A stretch of 64,000 nt of DNA from Clytia hemisphaerica (Eukaryota), in NCBI RefSeq assembly GCF_902728285.1, contig NW_027103772.1:249149-313148 (forward strand). The letters are read 5' to 3'. The notes below the pieces were generated by a model that did not search any database, was not told the origin of the DNA, and was given only the letters and a program-made list of their open reading frames with translations. Shown here in pieces: positions 16,340 to 40,681 of this stretch; within the stretch, counting starts at the first letter, position 1, and every line of letters begins with the position of its first letter. The position numbers and the translations under genes were made by a program.

Positions 16340-16500
16340 GAAGCATATGTGCACTGCGTTGGTATACAGACTCGAAAATATTGGTCAGTTCAGGTGGTAC
16401 GGATCGTATGCTTCGTGTTTGGGAAAACATACACGGTGCAAAAGCCAACTTGGCTGATTTAAAAGAAAAACTGAAGAGAACAACTTCTGCTTCAATTAAG
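16340..16500 (+). CDS. TBL2: TBL2-like exon 10 (SICALRWYTDSKILVSSGGTDRMLRVWEN...SASIK)
   Basis: Acceptor atcttag and donor AAG|gtaatt. Aligns to human CIANLSFDITGRFLASCGDRAVRLFHNTPGH... Confidence 0.8.
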
Positions 16501-16583
16501 GTAATTTGTATGCTTATTTGTATAAGTAAAGAGTCAAGCAAAGATTTTAATGTTTCATTGAATTCCTGAGTTGATGATAAAAT

Positions 16584-19509: not shown

Positions 19510-20227
19510 GTAAGTGTAGCCAACACTCTCTAAATCCGTCCAATCTGTTTACTTCTCACACCTCTTGATGTACCGTCGTTTTTTATAAGTTTCCCATTTC
19601 CGCACTAAGATTCCTTTGCAACTTTTCTATCGGAGAAAGACCAGGACTTTGGGTAGTTAAAAAATGAGCTTCGGAAAGTTAGGCAGTTTCGTGAGTAAAC
19701 ACAAGATTTTCCCTACCATTAGAAACAAACACTTTCCAATCGCTTGCAGGTTATTTCGGGAAAAATAGCGGAAAGATTTCGGAAAAGGTCTCACGTTTAA
19801 TTGATAACATGAGACAATATTACCCTTTTTTAAAGAACATTCCAAATTTTTGAAGCCTTTCGACTTTTTCAGTGTTTTTATCAATTTTCCTAAGAAATCG
19901 GGTACATGATTTTTTTATAAGAACAAACTATATAAGAACATAAGGCTTTCGATGACAAAAATATTGAGAATATTTAAAGGCTTCGTGGACTCTAAAACAC
20001 CCAATTTCTTAGGAAAATGGACAAAAATACTCACAAAATGGCGAAAATAAGAACATGCTAAAAACATTTTTAGGCCTAAAACTCAAAAAGAGAATTCAAG
20101 GCTTCAAAAATTTTGGATGTTCTTATAGAGAAACGTGTAATGCAAACCCTTACAATGTTGTTGACTTGTTCTCAATGGCCATCGAAGCCTTATTATAATT
20201 TATTTCTTTATTTTCTGTATTTCATAG

Positions 20228-20450
20228 CAAATTTACCTGATAACCAAAACAATGATACATTGATTGCTTATCAATTCTTGGATTACAATAAAAATGAAAC
20301 CATCAAAGAAAATATCCTTATGGTAGATGAGATATTTCAAAATATAAAAGACATTCGGTCGTTACACAGTCAGAAAAAGACGTTGAATCAAACAAAGCGA
20401 TTTCTTTTGCATAGATCGCTTCAAAAACGACACGCGAACCGTGGAACCAG
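20228..20450 (+). CDS. uncharacterised coiled-coil protein, exon 2 (ANLPDNQNNDTLIAYQFLDYNK...ANRGT)
   Basis: Acceptor ttcatag and donor CAG|gtacaa. The open frame is shared with ORF 20113-20499. Confidence 0.55.
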
Positions 20451-20836
20451 GTACAATAATTTCGATCTTTCAGGGGGTAAAAAGTTGAAATTTTTCTAAA
20501 TTTGATTTTCTGATTTTTCCGACCCTTAGCGGGACTTTGGAAGTCCAAAAAAGGTACCCTTTTAAGGGCGGCACATACCGTACCCTCCATTTGCCTAAGT
20601 ACCCCCCCCCCCCCGCGCGGCAAGTTATACACACTCGTTATTTATTAATTTAATAATTTGGCCTGTGGATTTCTTCTGTTCTATTATCCTGAGCCAAACT
20701 TATGACTATTTTTTGCCATACTATTTTCCAAAGTCCACGTTTCATTCGTCACATTATCCTAAAAAGAGTAGATACAAAACGACAAAAAGTTTCAAAAATG
20801 TTTTCTAAATGTTGAATCTCCCAATTCTCTTTATAG

Positions 20837-20997
20837 GGAGGATGCAGATGACATTTGTAAAACAGTGACTGATAATAGACGCGAATGGCAGGACCGTAGA
20901 GATTTGTTGAAAATGGCTGTCCCCTTGATCGGTGACTATATCAAAGCACAGGAAGAATATCTCCACAATGCCGTTAAAAATATCACAGATTACGTGG
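20837..20997 (+). CDS. uncharacterised coiled-coil protein, exon 3 (EDADDICKTVTDNRREWQDRRDLLKMAVPLIGDYIKAQEEYLHNAVKNITDYV)
   Basis: Acceptor ctttatag and donor G|gtaagt. The phase links to exons 2 and 4. Confidence 0.6.
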
Positions 20998-22600
20998 GTA
21001 AGTAATTGAGTATAATGGACTATAGTTTTCTACCGAATAATAGGCTAATTCCAGAAAAAATTAGAACTCCCTATGTCGAGGAGGTCTTCTTCAGGTCTTC
21101 AAAATTTTTAGGACGCTCTTGGATTTTTTAAATTTTTTTGGACCTCTCTGTATTTTCAGCCTTGTTTTACTGACCCCTGGGTTTTTTAATTTCCAGACCA
21201 CCCTGAACGTAATTATATCTCCTTGACATACGGGATATAGACTGGCACGCCAGTCGGGCTGGAACGGTATCACGCGGGAAAAGTGAGCGTAGGAGTTAGG
21301 TAAGCGTAGGAAGAAATTTTGTCGGCGGCAAGGGCTGAAAGCCCGACTGGAGCGAAACCCCAGGAAGGAAAAAACGGCTAAGCTGAAGCCCCAATCTTAC
21401 AACGCCAGATTTCGGCGTTGTAGAAATGAATGAACTTTGAGAAATTCGTGAAATGAGAAATGAAAACTTCCGTCAAAGTCGCAGATCGTGTTGTTTTGAT
21501 TTTTGAGGAGTGAGTGATTGGAAGAAAAATGGCTGACTTCTAGTGGAAATTTTTATTTGAATAGATGTTTTGTTTCTTGTTTCTTATTTGATGAGTCTCT
21601 TCTTTGTGTATATATATGTGGCTTTTCTTCATGGTTCTCTGCATATGCAAAATTCGTTGAATCATTTTTGGTTGTCTTTTGTTTTGATTTGAGAGGCAAG
21701 AGAAGATGGAAAATCTTGTAACATCAGTTATCAGAACTTGTTGATTTGTTATCTTTTCCTATTCATAACTCATTCAATTTTAGGAATGGAGTATTCAGAT
21801 CGCAAACACTATGGACTGTGAGTTTTTTTTTCATTTCAGCTTTCTTTTTCCTAGATTTACATGTGGTAATCAAAGGGATAACCCAGGTACAGTACCCTTC
21901 GTACCCTAACAATTATTTACTGACATTCAAACATAAGACTTTTTAATTTTCCAGGACTCACAAGTCAAAGGTTCTTTATCAAAAATATATGGATGTTGCA
22001 CTACCAGAGACTACTACACGACACTGACACAATGTCGTACGTATTGGAAGTGCAACAAAACGTGCAACAAACTTTTGTGAATATCTACCTGGTTATCCCT
22101 TTGTTATCCCTATGATAAAATTATAGTTTTGAGCAGAAATAAAGTTATGGTAAAGCAGCACTGACAAACAACAAATTTCTCCAAAAAACATTTTCTTTCA
22201 AATAATGAAATATTAAAAGTCTTCTTACAAGATTTGAAAATGATTAAATTTTTTCACCATGCTTATGTTTTACTCAATTCTAGTAATTTTTCCAAAACTT
22301 ATAACTTGCATAGAGGGAAATTTAGCAGAATTTATGGAGAAAATTAAGAATTCTCAGTTTGGCAACAAACATTTTCAAATGTACTGTACTATCACTTAAA
22401 ACATTATTAAATTGCCAGATTAGTGTGGCAAGAAAACTCTAAAAAAATTTAGCCATAAATCTTCAAGTGTGAAGTTAATTTTATTTCCATAGCTCACTTG
22501 TTCAACAAATTCTTGTCAAATTGGATGTCGAACAAGTGGGTTGTTGAACAAATGAGTACCAAAATGATCGACAACCCAGTTGATTGACAATCCACTTGTT

Positions 22601-22680
22601 CGACCAACTATATAGTTGTTCGACCAACTATATAGTTGTTCGATAACCTATATAGTTGTTCGACAACCTATATAGTTGTT
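22601..22680. repeat. 20-bp minisatellite (CGACCAACTATATAGTTGTT)x4 inside transposon copy A (1 unit in copy B)
   Basis: Direct tandem units. The homologous region in copy B (~54400-54480) has a single unit. Confidence 0.8.
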
Positions 22681-23440
22681 CGACAGACCAGTTGTTTGAG
22701 AAAAGAGTGTCAAACAAGTGGTTGTCGAGCAAATGGATGTCGAAATAATAACTGTCGAACAAGTGGGACTTCCCCAAAATTATAGTTGTACGTAGATGAA
22801 AATTTGTCAAAATTTATATTACGGTGAAAATTCTCAGTTTGATAACAAAAGTTTCTCGAATAGGTAACTTTAATTTACATAATTATAATATTAAATTGTA
22901 ACATTAGTGGGACAAGAAAACTCTTTAAAAAAAATAGCCATAAATCTTGGTAGTGTAAAGAAAAGTGACAAGAAAATTCTTCAGCACATAGCCACAATCT
23001 ATAGAAAAATGTCAGAATTTACATAATTCTTTTCTCACGAAAAAAATACTACATTTTTCTAAAGTTATGAATATATATATATATAAATTATGGATTTTCC
23101 ATCAGAGCTATCTTATCACAGCACTAAATTCTGCAAATTTCAATTTTTAACAAATTAAATTTGTGCATGTCGATGTTACATTTTTCCTGACAGACTGAAA
23201 AACTTAATTATTTCAACATGACATCTAAAACTAGCAAAAGGTCTATCTATTTAATTTTCTATGCGTATATACGTGTAATTTTCCAGTGCTTGGCTGGTAC
23301 GTTACATGCTGACAGTCAGGACAGGTTGTTTTTTGTAGCAGTGAGTCTGTTGAAGAGGGTTGGGCTGTCAGACAGCAGCCAGCCTGGGAGTGATGACATT
23401 GAGAGTTTCTTTAAACTAACCAGGAAACGCTGTTTATTCT

Positions 23441-23560
23441 CACGATAACCTAAAAATGGTTTTCAAACCGTACCAAAAACTTTTGTCAACTCAATATTAT
23501 GTTGACTAAAATTTTTGGTACGGCTTGAAAACCTGATTTAGGTTATCGTGAGATATTAAA
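23441..23560. repeat. perfect ~120-bp palindrome (nested hairpin MITE) inside transposon copy A; counterpart in copy B at ~53603-53722
   Basis: ctcacgataacctaaaaatggttttcaaaccgtaccaaaaacttttgtcaac..gttgactaaaatttttggtacggcttgaaaacctgatttaggttatcgtgag. Confidence 0.8.
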
Positions 23561-24867
23561 AGTGTCAGAATTATTGATTATTATGATATGTTATTTTATT
23601 CTAAAAATAGTGTCAAAATTTTTCCAAAATGGTTATATTGCTGGGTACTTTTGAGAAGAGTTCCTGCCTGGTTAGTGTTACTGTTGTATTCATTGTGTTG
23701 GAGAGGTTCACTTAGCCACAATGAGACTAGACTGCTAGAGTAATCAAGTTCCTTAACAAGTAGTCTGTAAGTACTAAAATAAAAAAGCAAAAAGTATTTA
23801 GGTGGAACCAAAATAGAAAAAATATTTCTTACCTTGAATGAAAGAGGCTAGCAAAAAGCCACCAACCTGGATAGGGAAAACTGAATAATCCTTGTACACT
23901 TTTGATGATTGTAGAAAACTGAAGCTAAATTGCAAATACTTACCTTTCTAAGAATGTATGAAAAAACAACTAAGATGTAAAAGTTTCAAAACTTGAAAAG
24001 TGGCTCATCCTTTTACCACCCAAAATTCAAAACAAAGTGGTCTGTCGGCTTTTCTCCCTCCAAAATTTAGGAAAGCACTCCCCCGTTCTCAAAACCTCCA
24101 AAATGAAGCCGTGGCAGAATGTTCTAGTCTGTAAATCAGCAGCCTCTCACCAACTTTTGCTCGCTCTCCTACGCAGCTCCTATTCTAGCAAACGCCCGCC
24201 GCCTTTATGTTCCCGCCCTCTGACATGATTAATTTACAGACTAGTTTGCTAGTCTATACGGGATATAGAATTTTTCTGGAATAACCCAATATTTTTGATT
24301 GAATCTTAAATGTTCCTTGGAATGTTCTCAAAACCCTTTTAGTTTCATATAGATAGAATTCATAGATTTTGATTCCTTCACATTTATTTTTACCAGGGGT
24401 CGATAAATTTTCAACCTTAAAAATTCTTTGAGTTCGTGATGGACGCAGCCTTTCTATAATTAATCCACGCAAAAATTAATACACTCTTCTCGAGATGCAT
24501 CGATTTATTGTTGTCCTCGTTTTCAAACAGATTTCACTGCTATAAAATTACATATTCACGATGATAATTGTGTTGTTTACACCTCATGAGACATTTTGAA
24601 TTTTAAGTACTTTTGTTTTAGAGTTAATGTTTGCCTTTTGGGAATTTAAGTTGGTTTAAATGTATAATTTGATAGCAATGAAATCTGTTTGAAAACGAGG
24701 ACAACAATAAATTTATGCATCTCGAGAAGAGTGTATTCACTTAAAGGTATTTACGATACCTTTGCAGGCAATTTCCTACTAGAGTCTTAGGTGAGACGAA
24801 TGTATTTTTTAAATAAAGCTCTAAGTTGAAAGCTATCATTCAAAACATTGTCTATTGATTGTTTCAG

Positions 24868-25235
24868 GTGATATCACAAAGGAATTATTATCGACCAAGA
24901 TGGAATACAGTCTAAATCTAGCCTGTAAACAAGTTCAATATCAGCCTCCAGTTACGTGTCTCACGTCAAAGAAGAAACATGAAAAATTACGCATGCGTAA
25001 TGAGCAAGCAGAAAGAATTCTTCAAAAATGCGAGCAATTGAAAGAGGCATTAACAGCCTTAGAACCGGTTTCTAGAAAAACGAAATTCAAGAAACGTTTC
25101 GAGAGCAGACGTGATGCTATGAAATATTTTTTGAGCACTCGAAAGTCGGATTCTGAGCTAGATTTTGATATAAGCACAAGAGGTGAATTTATTGTCGAAG
25201 AATTACGTAATGATTTGAATAGTCAATATTGGTAA
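24868..25235 (+). CDS. uncharacterised coiled-coil protein, terminal exon (DITKELLSTKMEYSL...RNDLNSQYW*)
   Basis: Acceptor gtttcag. Long open frame (ORF 24855-25235) ends in TAA. Basic, coiled-coil-like composition. No confident family assignment from sequence alone. Confidence 0.6.
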
Positions 25236-25590: not shown

Positions 25591-26376
25591 CCCGGCCATA
25601 ACAATGAGAGGAATAAACACGAAGACAAGTTAAATATTCCTCTCGAGCCATTAACTCAATGATTTATCTATACTTAAATTTATCTTTCCTACGGGCACCT
25701 TAATAGCATGACAAACCTGTTCCCAAAATGTCAACATCCTTAGCCCATAAAAAAACTTTATAAACTGAATTTGAATAGAGGCGGTGGAGACACGTGCGAG
25801 AATTTTTTTTTCGGGTTGGTGGAATCTAACCTGGAACGCTTTCTCGTATCTCCACCTCATTTCTCTTTCTGCCAATAAAAGTGAAATCTCCTTTTTGTCC
25901 CTGGGATAAAATCAGCGTATTTTTTGGGGATTTCCCTCACTTTTTCCAACCCTTAAGTAACCTTACTTATTGACGAACAGACTAATTGATTTTTTAATTT
26001 CATGTACACAGAAAATTTTATATTACTCAAATTCAAAAAAGGATTTTTCAAAAAAAAATTACAAAAACGAGATAAATTATACAGCGTGTACCGGACACAA
26101 GAAACTGAAATTGTAACAAAAAAACTGGTGACAAAAATTCCTATACAAAAAGTATAAAAAATCAAACCCCTGGCTGCTTCCAAATAGAAAAGTTTCGAAA
26201 ATAAAAACTGGATAATTCATTTTCAAAACGAGTCATTAAGATATTCACGGTTATTCAAAACTTAAAGAAATACTAAACGAAACAAAACCAACTTTCCTGA
26301 TTTGTTAATAAATTAATTGTACTCAAAATGTCAATAAAATCCCGGAATCACGGGACACATTATGATTGACACCATT

Positions 26377-26721
26377 TCACTCATCCGACATTTCAGAAGT
26401 AAAGCTCGACCTGCGTTTGCGGGCTACAGCTGACGTGCTAATCAATCCTTCGGCCGTATTGAACAGATTGATGGGTGATTTTCCATCTGTAATCAAGGTT
26501 GATTGCAAGCCTAATGATTTCAATAATTTGACCTGCATCTCTGGTCCTGCAGTGGCGATCGATTGGATCGTGTTTGGCCCAATAGCGTCAACCATATGCT
26601 TGAATTTTGCAGACTCGATGTGAGCAAGTTCTTGAGTCTTGTTAATCTCTAACTCATTCTGGTCCTTAATATATTTTGTTTCTGCGTCACGAGCGGCAGT
26701 CAAGCGTTTCAATTCGGAAGC
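26377..26721 (-). CDS. MVP: MVP terminal exon ([14 protein letters not shown]...[48 protein letters not shown]...SEMSDE*)
   Basis: Acceptor tattttccag. Aligns to human [55 protein letters not shown] stop at 26377-26379. Confidence 0.9.
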
Positions 26722-27239
26722 CTGGAAAATAAGGATGGGAATTTATATACACCAATTAAGAAATACAAATCATTTTCATAATTTTCAAGTTGTTGCTCTC
26801 AATATCTAACTACGCTAAAGTCCTGGCAACAAAAAATCATTCAGTTTCAACAAAAAATGACGAGACAGAAGACAATCAAAATATTTAATTGTCTAAACCT
26901 TATCTATGATAAAATCTCGAATTCAGAACTAGTGGCAAGTTTTAAACAATAGAACTAGTATAAACACCCGATGTTTTGATTTTTTCCGTATGAAAAGATC
27001 TTGAATATCACGAATAAAGGGTAGTGTGTAAGACTGAAACAATTTGAGCAGAAAAGTGGAAGAAAATAGAAAAACAGCTTCTGGTCGTTTCTATGGAAAA
27101 TCCTTTTAATGAAAAAATCCTTTATTCCAGCTATGATAACCAAATGACACTGAAGGGTAAGCGACCTTGCATATGAATGAAAGCCGTATCAAAAAGCTGT
27201 TTTCCCATCTCTTAACAATCCTTTGAGCAAAATACGTAC

Positions 27240-27483
27240 AGCTTCGATATTGGAGGCTTCCGCTTTCAGTTGCGCTTGTTGTACAGCAGCTTCGCCCTCA
27301 ATGCGCGCGGCTTCGGCGCGGGATTGTGCTTCCGCTTTAGCTTGACCAGTTGATTCAACAGCGGCACTTTCAGCTTGGAGTTGCAACAATTCTCGTCTAG
27401 CTTTTTCAGATGCGGCTTCATCTTGAATCTTTTGTCTTTCCAAACGACCACGTGCTTCTTGTTCCAATCTGTCAGCCTCATGT
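27240..27483 (-). CDS. MVP: MVP exon 10 ([82 protein letters not shown])
   Basis: Acceptor ttcacag and donor gtacgt. Coiled-coil cap-helix region nearly identical to human ([52 protein letters not shown]). Confidence 0.9.
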
Positions 27484-27624
27484 CTGTGAAGAGAAAAGAA
27501 AGAAATTGTCAAATTAAGACTCAACGCTTCTGCTCATCCTCTAGCAAAAATGTTTCTTATATAAAAAGAAGTCTGCGATTCAGACTAACCGACATTATGT
27601 TTGACCTTTTTTCAGTGACGGAGT

Positions 27625-27885
27625 CGATTAGTACTCTCGGGTACCTAATAGCCGGGGGGGTTGGAATAAGCGGGGGGGGGGGGGGGGGGGGGGGTTGGAA
27701 AAAATCTCAAAACTTAATAAGCGGGGGGGGGGGGGGGTTGGAATAAAAATGTCCTGGGTGGATAATTTATGTAAAAGAGGCTAATACAGCATAATTATGA
27801 CAAAAAAGGGAAATTTCAAAAACATTTTCCCAAAAATTAATAAGGGGGGGGGGGGACGGCTATTAAGTACCCGAGAGTATTTGAT
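27625..27885. mobile_element. MITE with TIR AGTACTCTCGGGTACCTAATAGCCGGGGG and internal (G)n/'aataagcgggggg' motifs
   Basis: Inverted termini at 27625-27660 and 27850-27885. Lies in the MVP intron between exons 9 and 10. Confidence 0.65.
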
Positions 27886-28798
27886 TTTTCTGAATCCTGG
27901 CTGACCAGAGGAATGTAAAGAGATGGAAAAACAGTTTCTTGAAAACAATGGAAAAACGGCTCGCCATATACCATATATTGATGTCGAGTTAATAGGGTTC
28001 TTTTGTTGTCGCTATAAAAAATCTGCATAATTCTTTTGTTTCAAGCCTAATTATGCGCAAACTTTTAGGGCTTATATTTTGGGTACACCTCTCCTATACG
28101 AAAAAGTACCTATATCTTCTTGCTCAGAATTTCCTAGCGATTCTACTGATATAACCGCATCATGACCGCACCATTATATGGAGGACCATAGCTCGAGAAG
28201 ATTCTAACTTCGTCTTGATTTTACTCGAGTTTTGGCAGTTTTACAAGAAACAATTTAATATCATTGCGTTAAGAATTTCTTTTGCTATACATTAGTAAAT
28301 AAATTGCTCCTTATTCTTAAAAATTGAACTAGTAATCGGCGAAATCTAAATTTTCATTTTTATCGTCAAATCATGTAGAAACAGTCCGATTTGTATGGCG
28401 AGCCGTCTTTTCTGGACTTTCATTTAATGACCTAATCAACGTTTTTACAATAGAATTGTCAATAGAAGTGATCGTTGAACATTGAGTTATCAGTAAAGCT
28501 GTGTTTCTATCTTTTTACATTCCTCTGGGCTGACTGAAGACGATAGTAAATCAGTACTTTTACCGTTCTCGATTTTACAGGTCAAAACTGTGGAGTTATT
28601 CCTAATCGCTTCCCGATATCCGTAAAGACGCCATTGCAGTGTTGAAAATTAACCTCTGACGGCGCTATATCATCAAAAGTATTCGAGGGAACGCAGATCT
28701 CCGATCAAAGATTTTGGTATATAAATATAGTTTATATAAAGGTCCGTGATCGGGATACACAAACGGAAAGAAAGAACAAAAAGAAGAAATTTTCTTAC

Positions 28799-29143
28799 TT
28801 TGCAGATGCTTCTTGTGAGGCTGTCGTAATCTCAATAGCCAATTGAACAGATTTCTGCAAAGCATCTCGGGTACGTTGATCCACAGGCTCGACAGACTGA
28901 ATATCCACACTGGTAATGTTTAACCCGTTAGCTGGGAAAGTAAATTTCTCACGCACTTTATTTTTCTCGTCTAATCCAAAAACGGATGCGCGGATGATTT
29001 TAGCGGAATTCTTGTGGAAATCGTCGAATTTTACGGAAGCGACAGCACCACGGATACGGGACGCGATTGCTTTGCATGCATCTCCGATGAAATCGGGAAC
29101 GGAGAATAATCGAGCACCGTCTTTTGCTTCGTGTGCGAAATGC
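28799..29143 (-). CDS. MVP: MVP exon 9 ([52 protein letters not shown]...[37 protein letters not shown])
   Basis: Acceptor tttaacag and donor gtaaga. Very high identity to human ([40 protein letters not shown]...[30 protein letters not shown]). Confidence 0.9.
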
Positions 29144-29930
29144 CTGTTAAATAACGGTGAAAAATAATTTACATACAGTTGACTCCCTGTAATTCGATCT
29201 TCATGGGACCAAAAATTCTTCTAATCAGAGAACAATTCGAATTATAGAGAGTAATTTCATCTACTTTCTAGCTGAGTTGACCCAAATATATTAGTTCGAA
29301 TAACAGAAAGGTCCGAATAATAGAAGTTCGAAATAGAGTGAGTTTACTGTATCTGTTCAGTGCCGAAAGAAGCAGTTTGATACAAGGGGATGTTTAAAGT
29401 TATTTTTTTGTTATGATATCGAAAGGAGGCGCGTCTGTATGCTGACAAGGCAAAATAATACAAAAGAATTTCTCAAAATTTGTGCTTGCAAGGCACCGAA
29501 AGGGAAGAAAGTTGTTTTTTATTTTGTTTAAAGATGCTGTGTCAGCAAATTGTAGGAGATACGGCAAACGATGTTCTCTTAGTTGCGACGCTTATACTTT
29601 AAGCTCTTATTAGTTGTAGAAACCCTACATTTGTACGTCAATTTCTTTTAGCAAAATTACAATTTATATAAAGGAGAACTCGGGGGTTTTATTCAGGCCC
29701 AGTGTACGGCGGACGGCGAATTTCGACGGTCCAAGGAATGAAGAGAATTACAATTTGTCGGTTCGCCTCTTACAGTTTATATCCACGCTGATATTGATTG
29801 GGCTTGCCAAGAATTCGCTGGACTAGAATCTAAAATTCCCCGAAGTTTATTTTTCATTCGTCAGCTTTTCAAATACAAAATGAAACCCCTGAAAACTAAA
29901 ACAAAGAAAAGAAGAGAAATAATCCCTCAC

Positions 29931-30128
29931 CAGTTGTATGACAGTTGAAGTGACAATCGGGCGTGGTCAGCCGTCTCCACGACAACGATATCAGTACAAA
30001 AGTCTGGGCCGAGTAATAGACATAAGGCCTTGATTACATTTGGTCGTTTTGGTTTTCCACCAGAAATGCTCAAGACGGTGAATTGTTCGTCGGGTAAAAG
30101 CATGACAAGGTCAGGTCCAAAGTTGACT
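29931..30128 (-). CDS. MVP: MVP exon 8 ([66 protein letters not shown])
   Basis: Acceptor tcttcttgcag and donor gtgagg. Aligns to human [66 protein letters not shown]. Confidence 0.9.
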
Positions 30129-30552
30129 CTGCAAGAAGAAATTCAAAGCACATAAGCTAATGTACAATACGAAAATTTGCTCAAGTTAGGGAGATTTGAG
30201 TTACGGAGTAAAGGTTTAAGAGGAATTGTTAACTGTTTGAATGAGCCATAAAACTTGTTCGAATTAAGGAGACACTCGAGTTACAGAGGTTCGAGTTAAA
30301 GAGACGCCAATGTAGTAAGCTTTGAAAAGGCCGTTTTTTTCGGGAAAGGGAAATATTTAGTAAAAATATTTCAACTACATTTCGAAAAACGGCTTCAAGA
30401 TTTTTAAGCTTAGGGGAACTTTTCAAGAAATTGGCAATGTTGGCGAGTTTGAAAAAATACCATGTCAGCTCAAATAATCACTATTTAAGAGCTGCTTCTT
30501 CGTGCCTGTGTATAATAGGAGTATTTTTTTTAGCAATGGGGATTTCATTTAC

Positions 30553-30691
30553 CTGGCTTTCTTGTCTTTGTAATCATAGATTTGCACTGCAGCATTGTGG
30601 GGCACGCGGAAAACAACCACTTTCGTTTTGTCTCTTGCCTTGCTTGCTCCCTTGGATCCACGCTCACTTCGGTCAGCGAGTGGGTCTTTAC
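30553..30691 (-). CDS. MVP: MVP exon 7 ([46 protein letters not shown])
   Basis: Acceptor ttcttatag and donor gtaaat. Aligns to human GQDPLADRGEKDTAKS...[23 protein letters not shown]. Confidence 0.85.
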
Positions 30692-31405
30692 CTATAAGAA
30701 AAAATGATAAAACATTATCAATAAATTACGTAGTTTGCACATTATGAGGGGGTCTATGTAACGAATCCTGCATTACTAAAAATAGACAAAAAGAACGACA
30801 AATTTCACCGTCCACAACCACCCCTGCGGATTTATTCCTTTGTTTATCACGGGAATTAACTACATATGGTTTAAAAGAACGACAAATTACGCATGCGTGT
30901 TACAATGCAGGATTCTTTAGAGGAACAGACTGTTATACAAAGCGAAAGCGGTTAGCGATCTATCATCGTTAACTAAAGATATAATGAAAATGTAGAAGAA
31001 TAGATCCTGATAATCTCTAATTTCAAAAGTATAGTTTTTGAGTTGACTAGAGTCTATTTGTGACTGAACTTTGCTTTTTGATATTGTTTACCAATTTAGC
31101 ACGAGCCAATTCATGATATTCATGACGTAATTTTTTCTACGATAATACCACGGTTTAAGCTAGTAGTGTCAACTTTAAACTAGACAAAAGTTGTATAAAA
31201 TTTGCCACTACAGGCAAAAACCAGGGTCTTTCCGTAGAAAACACTACGTCATGAATATCATGAATTGGTGTACTTTTAAGTGTCATTCAATCAAAATCTC
31301 AAGTGAAATCGAGGCTAGTTTTAAAGAAACATGAATTTAGAAGATTAAAATTTAGAGATAAAGATAAGTATGGAAAGATAAATATGGAAAAAGTTTTCTC
31401 CATAC

Positions 31406-31583
31406 CTTGCGCCAACAAGTCTTCGACGACAGGTGGCAATTCTTTGGCCCACAGTTCTTCATCCTGATCTAACATGTAGGTTTGACCAACCACAGCACGC
31501 ACTTGACCGGTCTTGATGTTTCGAACGTAAACACCTTCGTTTGCATCCAGTGGAATTGCTTTACGATGACTGGTCACTTCGAC
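31406..31583 (-). CDS. MVP: MVP exon 6 ([59 protein letters not shown])
   Basis: Acceptor ttatccag and donor gtatgg. Aligns to human [57 protein letters not shown]. Ends are +/-1 nt. Confidence 0.85.
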
Positions 31584-32207
31584 CTGGATAAAACAGATGA
31601 GATGGAGTTTTTATAAGATACTTTAATAATTGGTCATTTGAAATAATAAGAATGACGCGTTCTTTAGAAAAAGTAACAAAATTGTTTTATTACTGGTTAA
31701 CAAGATGGAGTTTTTACCAGCTCTTATTTGATTTGGTTGGTAAGAGCTTGTAAAAACTCCATCTCGTTCCGGTTTTTTTAAGACTTTTCCAGGACTTCCA
31801 AGAGGCCCTGCTGTGTTGGGATGGATGAAGGCACCGTTCTGCTTTGTTCTCGAACCGGTGCAAGTATGATCATGGAAACAAACTTAACGTGGCTTAATTT
31901 TGTCACCTTCATTGAAAAATTCATTCAATTGTGTCTCTCTAGACAATTAAACATACATGTTCCTTTTATAAGAACGTTCAAACATTTGGAAGCCTTCGAG
32001 TGTTCTTTGTTTTTTGTTTTCTAAGCTTTAAAATGTTCTTGAAATGTTCTTGTTTTCATCATTTTGAGAGTATTTTTTTTAAATATCTTCGTAAAAAATC
32101 GGGTCTACAAAGCCTGAAAATGTTCTTAACTTGTTCTTAATATTTGGGCCATCGAAGCCTTATGTTCTTATATAGTTTGTTCTTATAAAAACATGTGAAT
32201 GACAAAC

Positions 32208-32396
32208 CTCAACAGGTGGTACGTATTCACGTGGACCTCTGATCATCCATCGATCACCAGGAGCTCGTTTCTCTTTTCCATCCATAAATTCTTCGGTGGT
32301 TTTGAGAATCAAACCTTCATCCTCACCAAGAACATACACGTTTTGAGTGCCTTTCTCAAAACGTTCTCCTGGTTGCAAGAAAAATGATTTCTCACC
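32208..32396 (-). CDS. MVP: MVP exon 5 ([23 protein letters not shown]...[11 protein letters not shown])
   Basis: Acceptor tttag and donor gtttgt. Aligns to human [23 protein letters not shown]...RGPLEYVPSAK. Confidence 0.85.
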
Positions 32397-33397
32397 CTAA
32401 AGAAAAGAAGAAGAAAATTGATGTATGAAATGTCAATATTGGATGATTTCAATTTTAATTTGGAGTCTACTATACCGGGTGCAGCAGAAAAAACTTTGGA
32501 CGTTTGGCGAGCCACTGAGGCCGAACAAAGTCTTGTTTAGACTCAAAACCACTTTTATTAGAAAGAGGACATGCTAACTTAAATTTTGCGGTATAACTTT
32601 TTAAGTTTGGTCAAGTAGTTGTCAAGATATAAGCTTTTGAAGTCAAAATTCACTTTTCGAAAAGTGTAAAAAACACGTAAAAAAAGGTGTATTAAATTTA
32701 TGCAAATAATGAAAAAATAGCTCAGTATTTGACTTATTTAACGACTTTTACGACATAATTAATTGTTAAAATACTTTTAAAAGCAGTTTTCGTTTACAAC
32801 ATAGTCAGTTTTTAGTAAATAGTCAGTTTTTAGAAATATTTGAAAAAAATTCTTATCGAAAACGCTTAAAAATGCTTAATTTAATACCCTTTTATTACGT
32901 GTTTTTCACACTTTTCGAAAAGGAATTTTAACTTCAAAAGCTTATAACTTGACAACTACTTGACCAAACTTAAAAAGTTATACTGCAAAATTTAAGTTAG
33001 CATGTCCTCTTTCTAATAGAAGTGGTTTTGAGTCTAAACAAGACTTTGTTCGGCCTCAGTGGCTCGCCAAACGTCCAAAGTTTTTTCTGCTGCACCCGGT
33101 AGGCTGCATTGCATGAAAACTGCATACATCAATCGCAAGTTAGTTCTTTATTTCTAGAATTAGAAAGAATTATTGATTCCAAGGCAAAATGTAAAATAAA
33201 GACATTTAAAATCCTAGAGGAAGCAAAGTGAAGACCTAACCGTAATATCTTTTCAAATTAGGCCTTTTTATCAACAAGGCAAAGTGTAAAATAAAGATGT
33301 TTATAAAACCCAAAGATTGATACAATTAGTGAAGACTTAACTCAAATCCACCTCTTTTCACCACTAGTCAAAAAATCAAGAAATTCTCAAAACTCAC

Positions 33398-33508
33398 CTT
33401 GACTAATTTCTTTTGACCAAGTTGTGGTTTACCGTCGGCTCCAACAGGATCACAAATGATACAATATTGACGGTTGTTCAATGTTGTAATGTTGACCACA
33501 TCAACCAC
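33398..33508 (-). CDS. MVP: MVP exon 4 ([37 protein letters not shown])
   Basis: Acceptor tttcccag and donor gtgagt. Aligns to human [37 protein letters not shown]. Confidence 0.9.
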
Positions 33509-34186
33509 CTGGGAAATATCAATAATTCAATTTTCGTTAAAATTCCTACAAATTTTCTTTCATTTTTAATTGCAAGTATGCTTCATTATAAAATTACAAC
33601 AAGTCAAGATTAGGAAGGCAGAAAAGTTTGATAGACCACATCCACCACCTGGGAAATGCTATAAATCATTGCCATGGAATGATATTGAACAGGTGCTCGG
33701 TGATGAACAAACAAGATACCAGAATGGAGTAAAATTTGAAAAATAGTCAATAATAGTTTAATAATGATCACACTTCTTTACAATTTTTGTTCAAATTTCT
33801 ACTATTTTTCATTCAGTTTTAATTGCAAGTATGCTTCATTATAAAATAACTACAAGTCAAGATCAGGAAGGCAGAAAAGTTTGATAGAGGAGGTTAGAAA
33901 ATGAGCTCCAATTTATATCTTTAGTCAAAGACCATAGCATGCTTTCTTTGGCTATCTATATACGATCAGTTGCCAGTGCAAGGTGGTCAACTATTATTAA
34001 AAGTAATTAACAAAGGGGAAAGTGGGATAAAAAACTGGTTCCATCATTTGTTATACTACAGACCCCTTTCTGTCCATCCATCGTCAGACCATCTCTTTAT
34101 TGTGAAAAACAACCCTCCAAGGTCTCGTCTATGACTTGTGACATAAAAGTTTAATGTTTAACTGTGAAAAATAACTTCCATTTTAC

Positions 34187-34438
34187 CTCCTCATAGACGT
34201 TTGGGATATGTGTTTCAGTATCTTCAAGTGAGATCAACCATTCTTCACCATTTTTTCGTGTCTTTTTCAATTTTTCATCATTGAATGTTCGTGTTGCTCT
34301 CATATGTAATGCAACTTTGTCTGTCAACACATAAGCATCAACAATTTCGACAACTTCTTCATATGCCCCGGGTAAATAAGCACCAGTCTTTTTGACAACC
34401 CATTCCTCACCTGTCACACGTGGGTTACTCTCGCGATC
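34187..34438 (-). CDS. MVP: MVP exon 3 ([29 protein letters not shown]...HIPNVYEE)
   Basis: Acceptor ttttctttcag and donor gtaaaa. Aligns to human [29 protein letters not shown]... Confidence 0.9.
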
Positions 34439-34754
34439 CTGAAAGAAAAGAATAATGTATAAGAAAATTGAATAGAGTAAAATCTTGCATCTTACAAGAG
34501 TTTCGGTTTTCAAAGAATATTTCATCGATTTTTATTTGAGCTGTGATACTCACAACAACAATCTTGAGCAGCTATTTTCTTTGGCAAAGTCAATTTTATG
34601 AAAAAAAAGCATTTAATTTTCAAATTTAAATATAAGCTCATCTTTGCAACTTGGAAGAAAAGACCAGGATGAAATTGACCTGAGCCCTAAAAAACCTCTT
34701 GCATTACAGATTCAAAATAGGCCAATTTCACTAAAATATACACGAGTTCCTTAC

Positions 34755-35039
34755 CAAAGTTTCTTTTCTTGCTCTCAATTTGATGGCTTGATTAGGTTTG
34801 ATGATAACAGCCCTGATAGTTTCAACAACTTCAACTTCTTTTCTTGGAATATAGGTTCCAGGCCCTTCAAAAAGCCATTCGTCACCAGCAACGTAATCTT
34901 TTTTTGCATCACTTGTGAAATCAAGTAGAGCTCTCAAACGTAAAGCTGAGTTAGCTGGAACAACTTGTAAAGGTGTTTTTGGTTTCTTCAAAGTTTCTCC
35001 AGGGTATAATGGAAATGGGTCTTGGGCAAGTCTGATTTC
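34755..35039 (-). CDS. MVP: MVP exon 2 ([15 protein letters not shown]...[23 protein letters not shown]...LRARKETL)
   Basis: Acceptor ttattttaaag and donor gtaagg. ~70% identical to the human vault repeat region. Confidence 0.9.
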
Positions 35040-35541
35040 CTTTAAAATAAAAAATAAAATAAATTGATGAAAACTTTGGTCAGTAGGAGGCTATGGAGCA
35101 GTGGTGTATCTTCTAAGGAACAGATTAAAAATCAACAATCTGAGGAATCTGAGGCAAATATTTGCTTTTTCAGGAAAACAATGACACTTTTGGCTGTTTG
35201 CTATCATGTATAGTTTTGTGATCTCATTCTTGCTATTTTAAGACTCAAATGTAACCTTCGAGCATTTTGTAGTGCCTGATATATACCACAGTAAAAGTTT
35301 CTCCAGTAAAAGGACTAACTGGCTTTGCATGCATCAAAAAAAGAGTTAGAAAATGTGTAGCAATTTTTTGGCAAGCACGGTTTTTACATCCTGAAATGGA
35401 TAAATTTTCAATTTTTAGTTTATAAGTAATCCAAAAGCGCATCGCAGATTGTGAAATGCAATACACTAGTTAATTCTATCCCTGCTTTGTCTTAATTTTT
35501 CATTGTGTAAAAATAAATAGCAAAGAAAAAATAAGACTCAC

Positions 35542-35826
35542 CAAGTCAGCATGTTTCAATTTAGCTTGACCATTTTCATCGAAAATAACTTTGCCTTCAG
35601 CATCGATTGACACAGGGTTTTCAATAACACAATAGTGTCTTGGAGGGATGGTGATCATTTGCTGGGGTCCAAAGACAACTTTCTCATTGTCTTGACGGAT
35701 GTAGGTCTTTGGACCAACTTCAACAGAAGTGACATTTGTATTTTGGTCGAGAATGTGAATGTAATAATATGGTGGAATTCTGTAAATACTGGTGGATTCA
35801 TCGCTTCCTCGTCCTTTTGAAGCCAT
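35542..35826 (-). CDS. MVP: major vault protein exon 1 ([29 protein letters not shown]...AKLKHADL)
   Basis: Near-collinear with human MVP N-terminus ([37 protein letters not shown]...VRLRHADL). Donor gtgagt. Confidence 0.9.
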
Positions 35827-36591
35827 GTTGGTAACTTGAAATAACAAAAGTTATAAAAACTCAATGTTACAAAACTCTCTTAGTATAGTAAGGTTGCAAA
35901 AATTAAGTCTGTCCTCTATCCAAACATTAATCTTATAATAAAACTTCATCACCAAGTGTTTAATTGCTTTTATAGCTATTTTAGACATTGAAATCTAATT
36001 CTTTCAGAAAATGATTATTTTGCAATAATGACCAGGGAGTGCATCATCAAAAGTTTGAAGTCATAGGAAAGTCCCTTAATATTTCTGGAATTTGCTGACA
36101 AATCAAAATTTAAGGAAATAATTGTTTTCAGAGCAAATTCAGCAGCTAAAGCCATCCAAATTCAAACTTACCACAGAAAACGCTGATTGGATGTTTTGTT
36201 TATGAACCCAACCCCTTCCATAACATTGCCATGTAATAGAACTTAAATCTTAAAACCCAGGGTAAAGTCACACAAACCGGCGGGGAAAATGGCTGGGGTC
36301 AATCTATATGACAGGGCTTCTTTTTGTGCTTTGGTTTTAGGTCATTTTTTTTGTTTTTTCTTAAAGATATATCAAAGTAATTGGTTATTGAAGTAATCAA
36401 TTGGTTATCGAAGTTGTCAAAGTTATCAAAAGTAATCAATAACGATCAAAGTACTCGAACGGTTATTGAGTCTTCGAAGGGTTGTTAAGAAAGTGATCGA
36501 ATACTCAAAATTTTTTTGAAATTTTGGTACCCAACATTTGATTTAATCAATAAGTGGTTGTTTGATTACTTTGATCATTATCGATTACAGT

Positions 36592-36797
36592 AAGTTGGTC
36601 TAATATCGACATCCCTCTTCCAATTCTGACACCCTTCTTTAGAGACAGGAATAATATGAAAGCTTCAATCACTGATTGAAAAAGAATTATTCCTCTCTGA
36701 CCATTAAGCAAAGAAAAACAGTTTCAACCTTTCTATCAATTTCAGCTGATAAAGAGGGTGTCGTAATTAGAGGAGGGATGTCGACATTAGATTAAGT
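36592..36797. mobile_element. MITE family 1, copy 2
   Basis: TIRs aagttggtctaatatcgacatccctcttcc / inverted. Lies between AGL and MVP. Confidence 0.65.
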
Positions 36798-36853
36798 GGC
36801 GGTACTTCCATAATCGAATTGATCGATTACAGTACCGTCTGGCTTGAACCGAC

Positions 36854-37079
36854 TACCGTGAGATCGGGTAACTTGCATCAGTGAAGGCTAACATGCATAG
36901 CCCTCAAATGAAAGAAAGACCTGGCTGGTAATTAAAATACAAAGTTAAATCAAAACAAAAATGGTAGAGTAGAGCTTTGTGCGGAGCTGCGTAGTTGTAT
37001 TTTAATGACCAGACAGGTCATTCATTTGTGGGTTATGCATGTTAGCCTCCACTGATGTAAGTTACCCGATCTCACGGTA
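36854..37079. mobile_element. MITE family 2, copy 2 (adjacent to a family 1 copy)
   Basis: taccgtgagatcgggtaacttgcatcagtgaaggctaacatgcatagccc / inverted. Confidence 0.65.
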
Positions 37080-38905
37080 CCCAATTCCCCTCACATGGCA
37101 TGGGTTGACCCAGGTAAAGGTTTATTCACTTTGCCAAGTGAACCGCTGCAAGTGGGAATCGAACATTAGTCGCCTGTGCAGCAACCAATGTCAATAACTA
37201 CTTTACCACAGCTGACAGAGCCTAAATCACAACAACAACGTTGTTTTCGGCACAAGTTTGAGCTTAGATGGCTCCCCTAAAACATCTAAAGATGTACAAA
37301 TTATACAATACTTACAAGAATCGCCCTGTTGAGGGTTCATAATCTCACACTCATTTGTTTAATTTGTTTTGAGACAAAAAAACTATTTCATTTTTACCTT
37401 TTGCCTTGCTTTGTGACATAAAGATAGCAATTTTTCTTGCTTTAGAAACTCAAACCTAGTTTCACATGGTGTTTTCTGAAGTGTTCATAATGTTTGTATA
37501 AAAAATAAAAACAAGCTTCTTTCTTTCAAGTTGAGAGATATAATAGAGGACCAAAGTATATATCGTCAATCAAACATCAAGCAAATTTCCTTTCAATTTC
37601 TATCAACCTCTATTCATCCATTTCTGCCCAGATACTTCTTCAAATCTTCAGAAGGCTTTTATACTATTCTGACCCTGAATTAAGTGGTGAAAAGCTTGTA
37701 CTATATGGTGCAATATGTAGTAAATTTACTTACTTTTTTTCCAGAAATCTGTCCTTCCAAAACCTTCGATTCGGGCGTAGATTTGCAAAGTGATGTTTAC
37801 AAAATTTTGTGCTGATTCCTGCGATTTATCAAATAATGAAAAGCCCGTCTACATTGTAAAACCTTTTCGAGAACCTACTAAAATTCAAAAAACAAAAAAA
37901 ACTATAAAATATTCCCTTATCAGATTGAATTGAATAATCTTGCTTGAATATGTAATTTTCAGCTTAAAAGAGATTCTTTTAACTACTTCTTATGATTTCA
38001 AAAATATCAGAACTCCAATCTTTAAAGTCTTGTAGTGTGTACGAGCCTTTAGCTCTTGCAACGCAATCTTGCACCATCGCGTTGCTTTTTTTCTCCTCCT
38101 TGTCAAATTCTAGACCTAAAAGGGTTTCTCAAAGGAGGGTACAATTTGGCAAAAAATAATATTCACATGTCAAAGAAAGTTCCTTGATAGAAAGCTGTTC
38201 AAGTAGTCAGAAAAATATTTTTTTCGCTCTTCTTCTAAATTTACTTCCGGGTTTTCATATCATTAAGTGGAAAGCCCTAGCTCCCGACTCGCGGGGAAAA
38301 CCCCGGAGAAGACACGCCTTCTTAACTTCCTTCGTTCTTCGTGCTGCACCTATTACACCCGGATAATAAAGCGCACCAGTTTTTATTTATCTGATTTGAG
38401 ATCTGATTCCATTCCTGAACCATCAGTACAACTAACACTGTCCGAAAATAAAAGAAAATGCATAGAGGTGCAAAAAAGGATAAGGATAAGGAGCTGAAAC
38501 TTTATATAGAGTCAATTTTGAGATTCCAAGTACAGTACACAGTACAAAAGATTTGCTACAACCTATTATATAAAAAGAAAATCGGCCTGGGGACGAGGTT
38601 AGTCTAATCTACGGGATAGATTCATATATTTATAAAGTCTGAAGGATTTCCTACCTAAACTCGGCACACTTTTCAGCAAAACCCCGATATCTAGCCCTTC
38701 GGGCTTTATAATATAAATCTATGGATAGATTGGTATTTTTGCTGACAACGCAAAACAATGTTCGGACTGAATAAGCAATATTTCATTTTAATTTCACTTA
38801 TGAGCTATAGATGATATAGATACTTATCACAGTATTCTTTTAATCTTCAAGCAACTAATATATAGATGATAAACTATGAAATCGTACGCTCGGTGCTGAG
38901 AGCCA

Positions 38906-40307: not shown

Positions 40308-40308
<1 letters not shown>

Positions 40309-40402
<94 letters not shown>

Positions 40403-40421
40403 TCAAATCAATCAATCAATC
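40309..40421. repeat. (TCAA)n/(TTGA)n microsatellite, ~28 units, overlapping the AGL stop codon and start of its 3'UTR
   Basis: Perfect caatcaat... run, interrupted by aaatcaaatc at 40401. Confidence 0.95.
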
Positions 40422-40681
40422 ATGGCTTGAAGATCATACAAAACTTCCAGCAGACAAGCAGACGACCATGCTTGAGTGGGGCAACTATGGGAACAAAATG
40501 CGCCATCTTTGTTTGTAAGCTCCGTCAAGCCCTTCCATGGCGACGTCTCGATTTCACGTTTATGTCTTGATAACACTTCGCGTGTTTTGCTAATCGTTTG
40601 TGGTAGCAAATTGGTTTTATCGATTCGTTCGGCCATAATGAGCCGGGCACGAAGGAAAGGTCCAAGAACCCATACCCATTC
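40412..40681 (-). CDS. AGL: AGL terminal exon (EWVWVLGPFLRARLIMAERID...SPWKGLTELTNKDGAFCSHSCPTQAWSSACLLEVLYDLQAMID*)
   Basis: Acceptor gcctttcag. Aligns to human EWLWPIGYFLRAKLYF...[38 protein letters not shown]. The TGA stop at 40412-40414 is the first unit of a (TTGA)n array. Confidence 0.9.
   Translation of the reverse strand, partial: EWVWVLGPFLRARLIMAERIDKTNLLPQTISKTREVLSRHKREIETSPWKGLTELTNKDGAFCSHSCPTQAWSSACLLEVLYDLQAMID

What the first reader, a model, noticed from the sequence alone, without database searches (positions are those of the whole stretch)
26377..35826. Complete, compact major vault protein gene (11 coding exons)
Every part of human MVP aligns collinearly: vault repeats, shoulder and the cap-helix coiled-coil. 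Stretches such as [35 protein letters not shown] and [25 protein letters not shown] are near-identical to the human protein. Vaults are patchily distributed across eukaryotes (absent from insects, nematodes and fungi), so an intact MVP helps place the organism and implies vault particles. The gene has fewer, larger exons than the 15-exon human gene. Its introns carry several MITEs and a duplicated decoy acceptor.
Basis: partly seen in the sequence, partly recalled or inferred. Interest (0 to 1): 0.5.

Follow-up and report, generated by a model that had tools for sequence, protein, structure and literature searches.

The report
Clytia major vault protein gene
This is an intact, expressed major vault protein gene of the jellyfish Clytia hemisphaerica; its product is identical to a protein already in RefSeq and UniProt, so it is real but ordinary.

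Summary
On the minus strand, 35826 to 26377, eleven GT-AG exons splice into an uninterrupted 856-codon frame. The product passes all five Pfam MVP models. It aligns collinearly with solved human MVP (1209 bits, 66% identity, residues 14-838 against 7-851). It is identical, residue for residue, to RefSeq XP_066918755.1, 'major vault protein-like isoform X2 [Clytia hemisphaerica]'. The window is therefore Clytia (Hydrozoa), and the gene is already annotated.

Three metatranscriptome contigs (about 98% nt identity) confirm all ten proposed junctions. There is a 5' exon at 37616-37398 with a 1563-nt intron. It carries an in-frame upstream ATG and gives the 866-aa isoform X1, with 12 exons. A second transcript form starts just upstream of 35826 and gives the 11-exon isoform X2.

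Eight of the ten CDS introns sit at positions and phases shared with Hydra and Nematostella. Two match none of the four other species compared.

The decoy acceptor is real; using it would bring in a stop after 12 codons. The MITE-like inverted repeats are real, but they are single-copy within the window. No vault RNA was found. Interest is low.

The parts
37398..37616 (-). 5' exon of isoform X1. It is mostly leader, with short uORFs. An in-frame ATG at 37419-37417 adds MSQSKAK plus the first base of a Val codon. The donor GT is at 37397-37396.
   Evidence: Transcript contigs L001 and L002 align to 37616-37395 at 92% and then jump to 35837. MSQSKAKVTN plus the 856-aa model equals RefSeq XP_066918754.1, isoform X1.
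35835..37397 (-). Intron 1 of isoform X1 (1563 nt, GT...AG). Its 3' part, at least 35968-35835, is the leader of the isoform X2 transcript.
   Evidence: Contig L008 is collinear with the genome from 35968 to 35541.
35542..35834 (-). The conserved start ATG is at 35826-35824 in a strong context (ACCAACATGG). It encodes repeats R1 and part of R2.
   Evidence: The N-terminus [22 protein letters not shown] aligns with [22 protein letters not shown] of P0002 and with the Hydra start.
34755..35039 (-). Coding exon 2 (285 nt, phase 0/0).
34187..34438 (-). Coding exon 3 (252 nt). It lacks the phase-0 intron near residue 232 that the other four species have.
33398..33508 (-). Coding exon 4 (111 nt).
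33634..33657 (-). Duplicated 'decoy' 3' splice site in intron 3. It copies tttcccag|GTGGT.GATGTGGTC and lies 140 nt upstream of the true acceptor. If used, it adds 140 nt with a stop after 12 codons (VVDVVYQTFLPS*).
   Evidence: Repeat D9 is 96% identical to 33494-33517. None of the transcript contigs uses it.
33781..33888 (-). Second copy (91%) of the 108-nt intron stretch 33528-33635. It belongs to the same local duplication as the decoy acceptor.
   Evidence: Repeat D1.
32208..32396 (-). Coding exon 5 (189 nt). The intron after it (phase 0, before residue 375) is shared with none of the four other species.
32473..33101 (.). 629-bp foldback element in intron 4. Its arms are at least 184 nt and 97% complementary, with TA at both ends. 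It is MITE-like.
   Evidence: I1 and I3; flanks; no other copy in the window.
31406..31583 (-). Coding exon 6 (178 nt). The intron after it (phase 1, in codon 434) is shared with none of the four other species.
31106..31268 (.). 163-bp inverted-repeat element in intron 6, with 71-nt arms that are 82% complementary.
   Evidence: I2; single copy in the window.
30818..30936 (.). Transposon-derived fragment in intron 6. It is 92% identical to 52781-52900, the edge of a roughly 3-kb repeat.
30553..30691 (-). Coding exon 7 (139 nt).
29931..30128 (-). Coding exon 8 (198 nt). The Hydra, Nematostella, Saccoglossus and Lottia exons here are also 198 nt.
28799..29143 (-). Coding exon 9 (345 nt), encoding the shoulder domain.
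27632..27879 (.). 248-bp MITE-like element in intron 9. It has 23-nt terminal inverted repeats (96%), TA flanks and internal G runs of up to 23 nt.
   Evidence: I7 and D2; flanks.
27905..28528 (.). 624-bp element in intron 9. It has 33-nt terminal inverted repeats (88%), flanked by GCTGA on both sides.
   Evidence: I4; flanks.
27240..27483 (-). Coding exon 10 (244 nt), encoding the cap-helix. This exon is 244 nt in all five species compared.
26377..26721 (-). Coding part of the last exon: the end of the cap-helix, the cap-ring and the stop TGA at 26379-26377.
25993..26376 (-). 3' UTR, at least 384 nt. An ATTAAA signal lies at 25998.
   Evidence: Transcript contigs align to 26721-25993 at 93%.

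Best explanation
This is the single-copy major vault protein (MVP) gene of the hydrozoan Clytia hemisphaerica. It is intact and transcribed, and synonymous differences far outnumber replacements.

It is read on the minus strand from about 37616 to about 25990. There are two mRNA forms:
- Isoform X1 has a spliced distal 5' exon. Its first in-frame AUG, at 37419, gives 866 aa from 12 exons.
- Isoform X2 starts inside intron 1. It uses the conserved AUG at 35826 and gives 856 aa from 11 exons.

The protein has every part of mammalian MVP in the same order: the N-terminal repeat domains, the shoulder, the roughly 150-residue cap-helix and the cap-ring.

By inference from the solved rat and human particles, 39 copies should associate side by side through the cap-helix bundle to form each half-vault. 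Two halves would then join at the N-termini to make the hollow 78-mer shell.

Shown here: the gene model, its expression, its family membership and its identity to the annotated protein. Inferred: particle assembly and any cellular role.
For: - The spliced ORF is intact, with canonical sites throughout.
- All five Pfam MVP models score far above their cutoffs.
- The full-length collinear match to solved human and rat MVP scores 1203-1209 bits. A separate match covers a cap fragment, query 740-840.
- Identity to human MVP is 66%.
- The product is identical to XP_066918755.1 and UniProt A0A7M5XJN9. With the 10-aa prefix it is identical to XP_066918754.1.
- Transcript contigs L001, L002 and L008 confirm every junction and both 5' forms.
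- Codon differences between the window and the transcripts are 44 synonymous to 5 replacement for L001, and 33 to 4 for L008.
- Eight of ten introns sit at positions and phases shared with Hydra and Nematostella, as expected for an ortholog.
- There is no second MVP copy in the window.
- The nearest named relatives follow the species tree: Hydractinia cluster 85%, Hydra 84%, the scyphozoan Rhopilema 78%.
Against: Nothing here contradicts the gene identity.

- The window has no vault RNA match (Rfam). Pfam matches on ten long open segments of the window outside MVP were thioredoxin, WD40 and glycogen debranching enzyme domains (three had no match), none a vault partner. The scan was partial, and those partners need not be linked to MVP.
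- Which AUG is used in isoform X1 is open. The upstream AUG has a weak context (TTTATGT) and is preceded by short uORFs. The 90%-related species (L005) has no in-frame upstream AUG.
Confidence: 0.97

Rival explanations
1. The true product is only the 866-aa form. Translation would start at the upstream AUG at 37419 in the 5' exon, so the gene has 12 coding exons and the reader's ATG at 35826 is an internal methionine.
For: In L001 and L002 the 37419 AUG is the first AUG in frame with the CDS, and the reading frame is open through to 35826. RefSeq lists this as isoform X1. The only difference between the window and L001 within these codons is synonymous, TCA to TCG.
Against: - A second transcript form, L008, begins inside intron 1 and can only give the 856-aa protein. 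RefSeq lists this as isoform X2.
- Orthologs from P0002 and Hydra start at the position of the 35826 AUG.
- The relative L005 has no in-frame upstream AUG.
- The 35826 AUG has a strong context and the 37419 AUG a weak one.
Confidence: 0.2
2. The locus is a decaying or non-functional copy, a pseudogene or a silenced duplicate. Its intactness would then be coincidental.
For: The introns are heavily loaded with transposon-like elements, and there is a duplicated decoy splice acceptor. MVP has been lost in several animal lineages (PMC3762200).
Against: - The 2571-nt frame has no stops or frameshifts.
- Full-length spliced mRNAs were recovered from three independent environmental RNA assemblies.
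- Synonymous codon differences outnumber replacements 44 to 5.
- The product is 66-84% identical to distant orthologs over its full length.
Confidence: 0.01
3. The protein is a bona fide MVP ortholog, but in this animal it acts mainly outside classical cytoplasmic vault particles. An extracellular or structural role is one possibility, as reported for MVP in salmon-louse cement.
For: A paper reporting MVP in an extracellular cement exists (PMC11219742, listed). No vault partners or vault RNA were found in the window.
Against: The cap-helix, shoulder and N-terminal repeats that mediate shell assembly are all conserved without large indels. The model encodes no signal peptide-like N-terminus (sequence). 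The absence of linked partners says nothing either way.
Confidence: 0.05

Closest known systems
Clytia hemisphaerica 'major vault protein-like' isoforms X2 (XP_066918755.1, UniProt A0A7M5XJN9) and X1 (XP_066918754.1)
   Same: The 856-aa model is identical to X2 at every residue. The model with the MSQSKAKVTN prefix is identical to X1.
   Different: Nothing differs. This is the same gene, so the finding re-discovers an existing annotation.
Human and rat MVP (PDB 4V60, 4HL8, 7PKZ, 11DR and others)
   Same: The domain order is the same over the full length: repeats, shoulder, cap-helix, cap-ring. Identity is 66%, and 89-96% across the two peptides quoted from the shoulder exon (exon 9).
   Different: The Clytia protein is 37 residues shorter than human MVP (893 aa). 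It lacks four short human insertions of 4, 3, 3 and 10 residues in R7, R8 and the shoulder. Its C-terminal tail after residue 838 is unrelated. The gene has 11-12 exons against 15 in human.
Hydra vulgaris MVP gene (P0006, CP147932.1)
   Same: The protein is 84% identical. Both genes have 11 coding exons, and eight introns are shared in position and phase.
   Different: Hydra keeps the ancestral phase-0 intron near residue 232 and has a phase-1 intron at residue 400. Clytia lacks both. Instead it has introns before residue 375 (phase 0) and in residue 434 (phase 1).
Nematostella vectensis MVP gene (P0110)
   Same: The protein is 73% identical, and eight of Clytia's ten introns are at Nematostella positions.
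   Different: Nematostella has 17 coding exons. Eight of its 16 introns are absent at those exact positions from Clytia.

Membership tests
Major vault protein (MVP) | Array of N-terminal vault repeat domains (Pfam Vault, Vault_2, Vault_3, Vault_4) | tested here: met
   Vault scores 1.4e-60 over 4 stretches, Vault_2 2.9e-38 over 2 stretches, Vault_3 1.4e-35 and Vault_4 6.2e-22. All are above the curated cutoffs.
Major vault protein (MVP) | Shoulder domain following the repeats (PF11978) | tested here: met
   MVP_shoulder scores 8.2e-51. Residues 520-634 cover profile positions 1-118 of 118.
Major vault protein (MVP) | Long cap-helix and cap-ring at the C-terminus, collinear with solved MVP | tested here: met
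   The phmmer alignment is continuous from query 14-838 to human 7-851, with no gap in 640-838. A separate hit to cap fragment 9z5n_B covers query 740-840.
Major vault protein (MVP) | Orthology to recognised MVPs, with no closer family | tested here: met
   All 120 best listed database hits carry the five MVP Pfam domains, and nearly every one that a source named is called major vault protein (the rest carry uninformative labels such as 'hypothetical protein'). The product is identical to the RefSeq Clytia MVP-like protein. Intron positions are shared with other animal MVP genes.
Major vault protein (MVP) | Intact, expressed gene | tested here: met
   No in-frame stop after splicing. Three spliced transcript contigs confirm all the junctions. 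Codon changes run 44 synonymous to 5 replacement.
Major vault protein (MVP) | Self-assembly into the 78-subunit barrel-shaped vault shell | not testable with these tools
   This needs EM of native or recombinant protein. It is inferred only from conservation of the assembly domains.
Vault ribonucleoprotein (complete particle) | Presence of vault RNA, TEP1 and vPARP partners | tested here: inconclusive
   No Rfam family, the Vault RNA model included, reached the gathering score anywhere in the 64-kb window. Pfam matches on ten long open segments of the window outside MVP were thioredoxin, WD40 and glycogen debranching enzyme domains (three had no match). The partners need not be linked to MVP, and the rest of the genome was not available.
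MITE (miniature inverted-repeat transposable element), for the intron elements | Terminal inverted repeats, small size, no coding capacity | tested here: met
   I1 is 629 bp with arms of at least 184 nt at 97%. I7 is 248 bp with 23-nt repeats at 96%. I4 is 624 bp with 33-nt repeats at 88%. I2 is 163 bp and I5 is 70 bp.
MITE (miniature inverted-repeat transposable element), for the intron elements | Target-site duplication | tested here: inconclusive
   I1 and I7 end in TA...TA, which could be a TA duplication or part of the repeat. I4 is flanked by GCTGA on both sides. I2 and I5 have no clear duplication.
MITE (miniature inverted-repeat transposable element), for the intron elements | Many dispersed copies in the genome | tested here: inconclusive
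   None of the five elements has a second copy in the 64-kb window, and the genome was not available. Three other intron stretches (29183-29350, 30190-30312, 30818-30936) do have dispersed copies in the window.

The most novel reading that the evidence does not exclude
Two Clytia introns have no counterpart in Hydra, Nematostella, Saccoglossus or Lottia. One lies before residue 375 (31584-32207) and one in codon 434 (30692-31405). They could be recent intron gains produced by insertion of inverted-repeat transposons at AG|GT proto-splice sites. Both introns carry such elements: I5 in the first, and I2 plus a fragment of the 3-kb repeat in the second. The duplicated acceptor in intron 3 might also serve regulated unproductive splicing of MVP.
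Probability: 0.12. Interest if true: 0.3.

Novelty: already known. Interest (0 to 1): 0.07.

Why it matters
It matters little beyond bookkeeping. MVP was already reported from cnidarians (PMC3762200), and this exact protein is already in RefSeq and UniProt.

There are three useful by-products:
- The window is firmly placed in Clytia hemisphaerica.
This is a good calibration point for reading from sequence alone.
- There is a small comparative note on gene structure. Hydrozoan MVP genes lack several intron positions seen in the anthozoan and bilaterian genes, while Clytia has two positions of its own, and two 5' transcript forms exist.

Clytia is a genetically tractable jellyfish model. An intact, expressed MVP there could be a convenient non-vertebrate system for the still-open question of what vaults do. 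That is an opportunity, not a discovery.

Tried and rejected
- **Vault RNA and tRNA scan.** I searched the whole window with Rfam (gathering thresholds) and ARAGORN for a linked vault RNA or tRNA. Nothing was found.
- **Extra copies of the MITE-like elements.** I looked for more copies of the five inverted-repeat elements in the window to confirm MITE status. There were none, so copy number stays untested.
- **Genomic record for the Clytia proteins.** I tried to fetch it for P0121 and P0122 to align the window to the named assembly. Neither is on record in the collection. Assignment of the window to Clytia therefore rests on 100% protein identity, plus 98% nt identity to environmental transcripts.
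- **Rhopilema locus for intron comparison.** It is not on record.
- **First tblastn exon mapping of the comparison genes.** It missed short exons. I replaced it with an exact spliced matcher.
- **Pseudogene and second-paralog readings.** I considered both and rejected them.
- **Structure prediction and fold search.** I did not run them. With 66% identity over the full length to solved MVP structures, they would add nothing.
- **Introner-type origin of the two unshared introns.** I looked at their ends by eye. Only the generic AG|GT context is shared, so this remains speculation.


Full report
**1. Checking the observation**

The region reads as a gene on the minus strand. A three-frame translation of 36000 to 26200 shows eleven long open stretches whose peptides follow one another in MVP order.

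Each stretch is bounded by a canonical acceptor (AG after a pyrimidine-rich tract) and a canonical donor (GT). The exons are:
- 35826-35542
- 35039-34755
- 34438-34187
- 33508-33398
- 32396-32208
- 31583-31406
- 30691-30553
- 30128-29931
- 29143-28799
- 27483-27240
- 26721-26377

Joined, they give 2571 nt, which is 856 codons plus TGA, with no internal stop.

**2. What it is**

Family membership is clear on several counts:
- The product hits all five Pfam MVP models far above their curated cutoffs: Vault 1.4e-60, MVP_shoulder 8.2e-51, Vault_2 2.9e-38, Vault_3 1.4e-35 and Vault_4 6.2e-22.
- Against the PDB sequences, the best matches are human and rat MVP at 1203-1209 bits. They form one continuous alignment, query 14-838 against human 7-851.
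- Identity in that alignment is 546/824, or 66%.
- In the large protein collection, all 120 listed best hits carry the same five domains. Nearly every hit that a source named is called major vault protein, and the rest carry uninformative labels such as 'hypothetical protein'.
- Named relatives follow the species tree: Hydra 84%, the scyphozoan Rhopilema 78%, then sponges, hemichordates and molluscs at about 73-77%.

The 99% cluster settles the organism. It contains RefSeq XP_066918755.1, 'major vault protein-like isoform X2 [Clytia hemisphaerica]' (also UniProt A0A7M5XJN9, 856 aa), and XP_066918754.1, isoform X1 (866 aa).

My spliced model is identical to isoform X2 at every residue. With the prefix MSQSKAKVTN it is identical to isoform X1. 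The window is therefore from Clytia hemisphaerica (Hydrozoa, Leptothecata), and the gene is already annotated.

**3.

Three metatranscriptome contigs encode this protein or a variant differing at 4-5 residues:
- L001 (JGI 3300032727)
- L002 (Logan SRR9024356)
- L008 (JGI 3300032617)

Aligned to the window, each breaks exactly at the ten proposed junctions, with 96-99.6% identity within the exons.

The contigs also show two different 5' ends.

*The distal form (L001 and L002).* These start at 37616 and run to 37398. They use a GT donor at 37397 and join an AG acceptor at 35836-35835, so the second exon starts at 35834.
- This 5' exon carries an ATG at 37419 in frame with the CDS, reading ATG TCA CAA AGC AAG GCA AAA G|TT ACC AAC ATG.
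- That gives the 866-aa isoform X1 from 12 exons.
- The leader also holds short uORFs of 3, 3 and 8 codons.

*The proximal form (L008).* This contig is collinear with the genome from 35968 across the acceptor, so it starts inside intron 1.

The 35826 AUG is the conserved start:
- P0002 (90% identical) and Hydra begin at the same position, with MADK....
- The P0002 transcript has no in-frame upstream AUG.
- The context at 35826 is strong (ACCAACATGG), against a weak one at 37419 (TTTATGT).

The 3' UTR runs to at least 25993, and an ATTAAA signal lies at 25998.

**4. Selection**

Against L001, the 2601-nt CDS differs at 52 positions, giving 44 synonymous and 5 replacement codon changes. Against L008 the counts are 33 and 4. 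The UTRs are only 92-93% identical, whereas the coding sequence is 98% identical. This is a constrained, functional gene and not a pseudogene. There is no second MVP copy in the window.

**5. Gene structure in context**

I rebuilt exact exon models for four other species from their genomic loci:

| Species | Coding exons |
|---|---|
| Hydra | 11 |
| Nematostella | 17 |
| Saccoglossus | 13 |
| Lottia | 13 |

I then mapped all introns onto one protein alignment.
- Eight of Clytia's ten CDS introns coincide in position and phase with Hydra and Nematostella. Four of these are shared by all five species.
- The conserved 198-nt and 244-nt exons are the same length in every species.
- Intron positions shared by two or more of the other species, near Clytia residues 49-50, 156, 232, 352, 402, 591 and 806, are absent from Clytia. 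Hydra keeps only the one near 232.
- Two Clytia introns match none of the other four. One lies before residue 375 (phase 0; 31584-32207) and one in codon 434 (phase 1; 30692-31405).

The human gene has 15 exons (PMC7916137), so 'fewer, larger exons' is correct. 'Compact' is not distinctive, however, because the coding spans of the other four invertebrate genes are 7.7-11.5 kb.

**6. Intron contents**

*The decoy acceptor is real.*
- 33634-33657 is a 96% copy of 33494-33517, which holds the acceptor plus the first 15 nt of exon 4.
- An adjacent 108-nt stretch is also duplicated at 91% (33528-33635 and 33781-33888).
- Splicing to the decoy would add 140 nt and stop after 12 codons.
- None of the three transcript contigs uses it.

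*Five inverted-repeat elements are present*:
- 32473-33101, with arms of at least 184 nt at 97%
- 31106-31268
- 31699-31768
- 27632-27879, which contains G runs
- 27905-28528

Two of them end in TA...TA, and one is flanked by GCTGA on both sides. None has another copy in the window. They have the form of MITEs, but the multi-copy criterion could not be tested.

Three other intron stretches are dispersed repeats with copies elsewhere in the window:
- 29183-29350, matching 12138-12302
- 30190-30312, matching 13967-14088
- 30818-30936, matching 52781-52900

**7. How it most likely works**

The following rests on established structural work on rat and human vaults, whose PDB entries were matched. 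MVP chains pack side by side, 39 per half-shell. They are held mainly by the cap-helix bundle and the shoulder, and the two halves meet at the N-terminal repeats.

All of these parts are conserved here without large insertions or deletions. The Clytia protein is therefore expected to build the same shell. That step is inferred, not shown.

Nothing in the window bears on cargo or partners. No Rfam family matched, the vault RNA model included. Of ten long open segments elsewhere in the window scanned against Pfam, seven matched (thioredoxin, WD40 and glycogen debranching enzyme domains) and three matched nothing.

**8. Comparison with what is known, and verdict**

- MVP is described as ancestral in eukaryotes.
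- It is reported missing from fungi, insects and nematodes.
- It is present in cnidarians, Hydra included (PMC3762200 and PMC7916137).

This locus is the already-annotated Clytia ortholog. Novelty: already known. Interest: low.

Noticed in passing
window 21238-24256 and 52781-55909: A repeat of about 3 kb is present twice in inverted orientation at 81-95% identity. Both copies appear to lie within introns, one in an unidentified plus-strand gene and one in the glycogen debranching enzyme gene. One edge of it (52781-52900) also occurs in MVP intron 6. It is probably a large transposable element with no Pfam-recognisable ORF.
   Followed up: partly
window about 40415-62681, minus strand: Exons of a glycogen debranching enzyme (AGL-type) gene match Pfam GDE_C, hGDE_central and hDGE_amylase. 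The gene lies upstream of MVP on the same strand and probably runs beyond the scanned exons.
   Followed up: partly
window 3496-16566, plus strand: This is a multi-exon WD40-repeat gene. Its first exon encodes a hydrophobic N-terminal segment (AIFVAIALGLLFFVIPLYLL) followed by WD40 repeats.
   Followed up: partly
window 2905-3267, minus strand: A thioredoxin exon with the WCGPC active-site motif (Pfam Thioredoxin, 3.9e-11).
   Followed up: partly
window 40308-40422: An (AATC)n microsatellite of 28 copies at 98% match. It reads as (INQS)n in translation.
   Followed up: no
window 27660-27745 and 27845-27856: The MITE-like element in MVP intron 9 contains G runs of up to 23 nt. These are C runs on the transcribed strand. 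They could form G-quadruplexes or be assembly-prone homopolymers.
   Followed up: no
window 37663-37656, minus strand: A TATAAAAG motif lies about 47 nt upstream of the first base of transcript contig L001. A CTATAAAAGC motif lies at the very 5' end of the proximal-form contig L008, near 35965. These are possible TATA boxes for the two start sites. The human MVP promoter is described as lacking a TATA core element (PMC7916137).
   Followed up: no
window 35950-35851, minus strand: In the proximal (isoform X2) leader, a 32-codon uORF (MKFYYKINVWIEDRLNFCNLTILREFCNIEFL) lies in the same frame as the MVP coding sequence. It ends 8 codons before the MVP AUG.
   Followed up: no
window 20080-25232, plus strand: Several long open segments converge tail-to-tail on the MVP 3' end. 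One example reads ...MAVPLIGDYIKAQEEYLHNAVKNITDYVGK, and there is a 136-aa segment at 24825-25232. The two segments tested have no Pfam match, so this is an unidentified neighbouring gene.
   Followed up: partly
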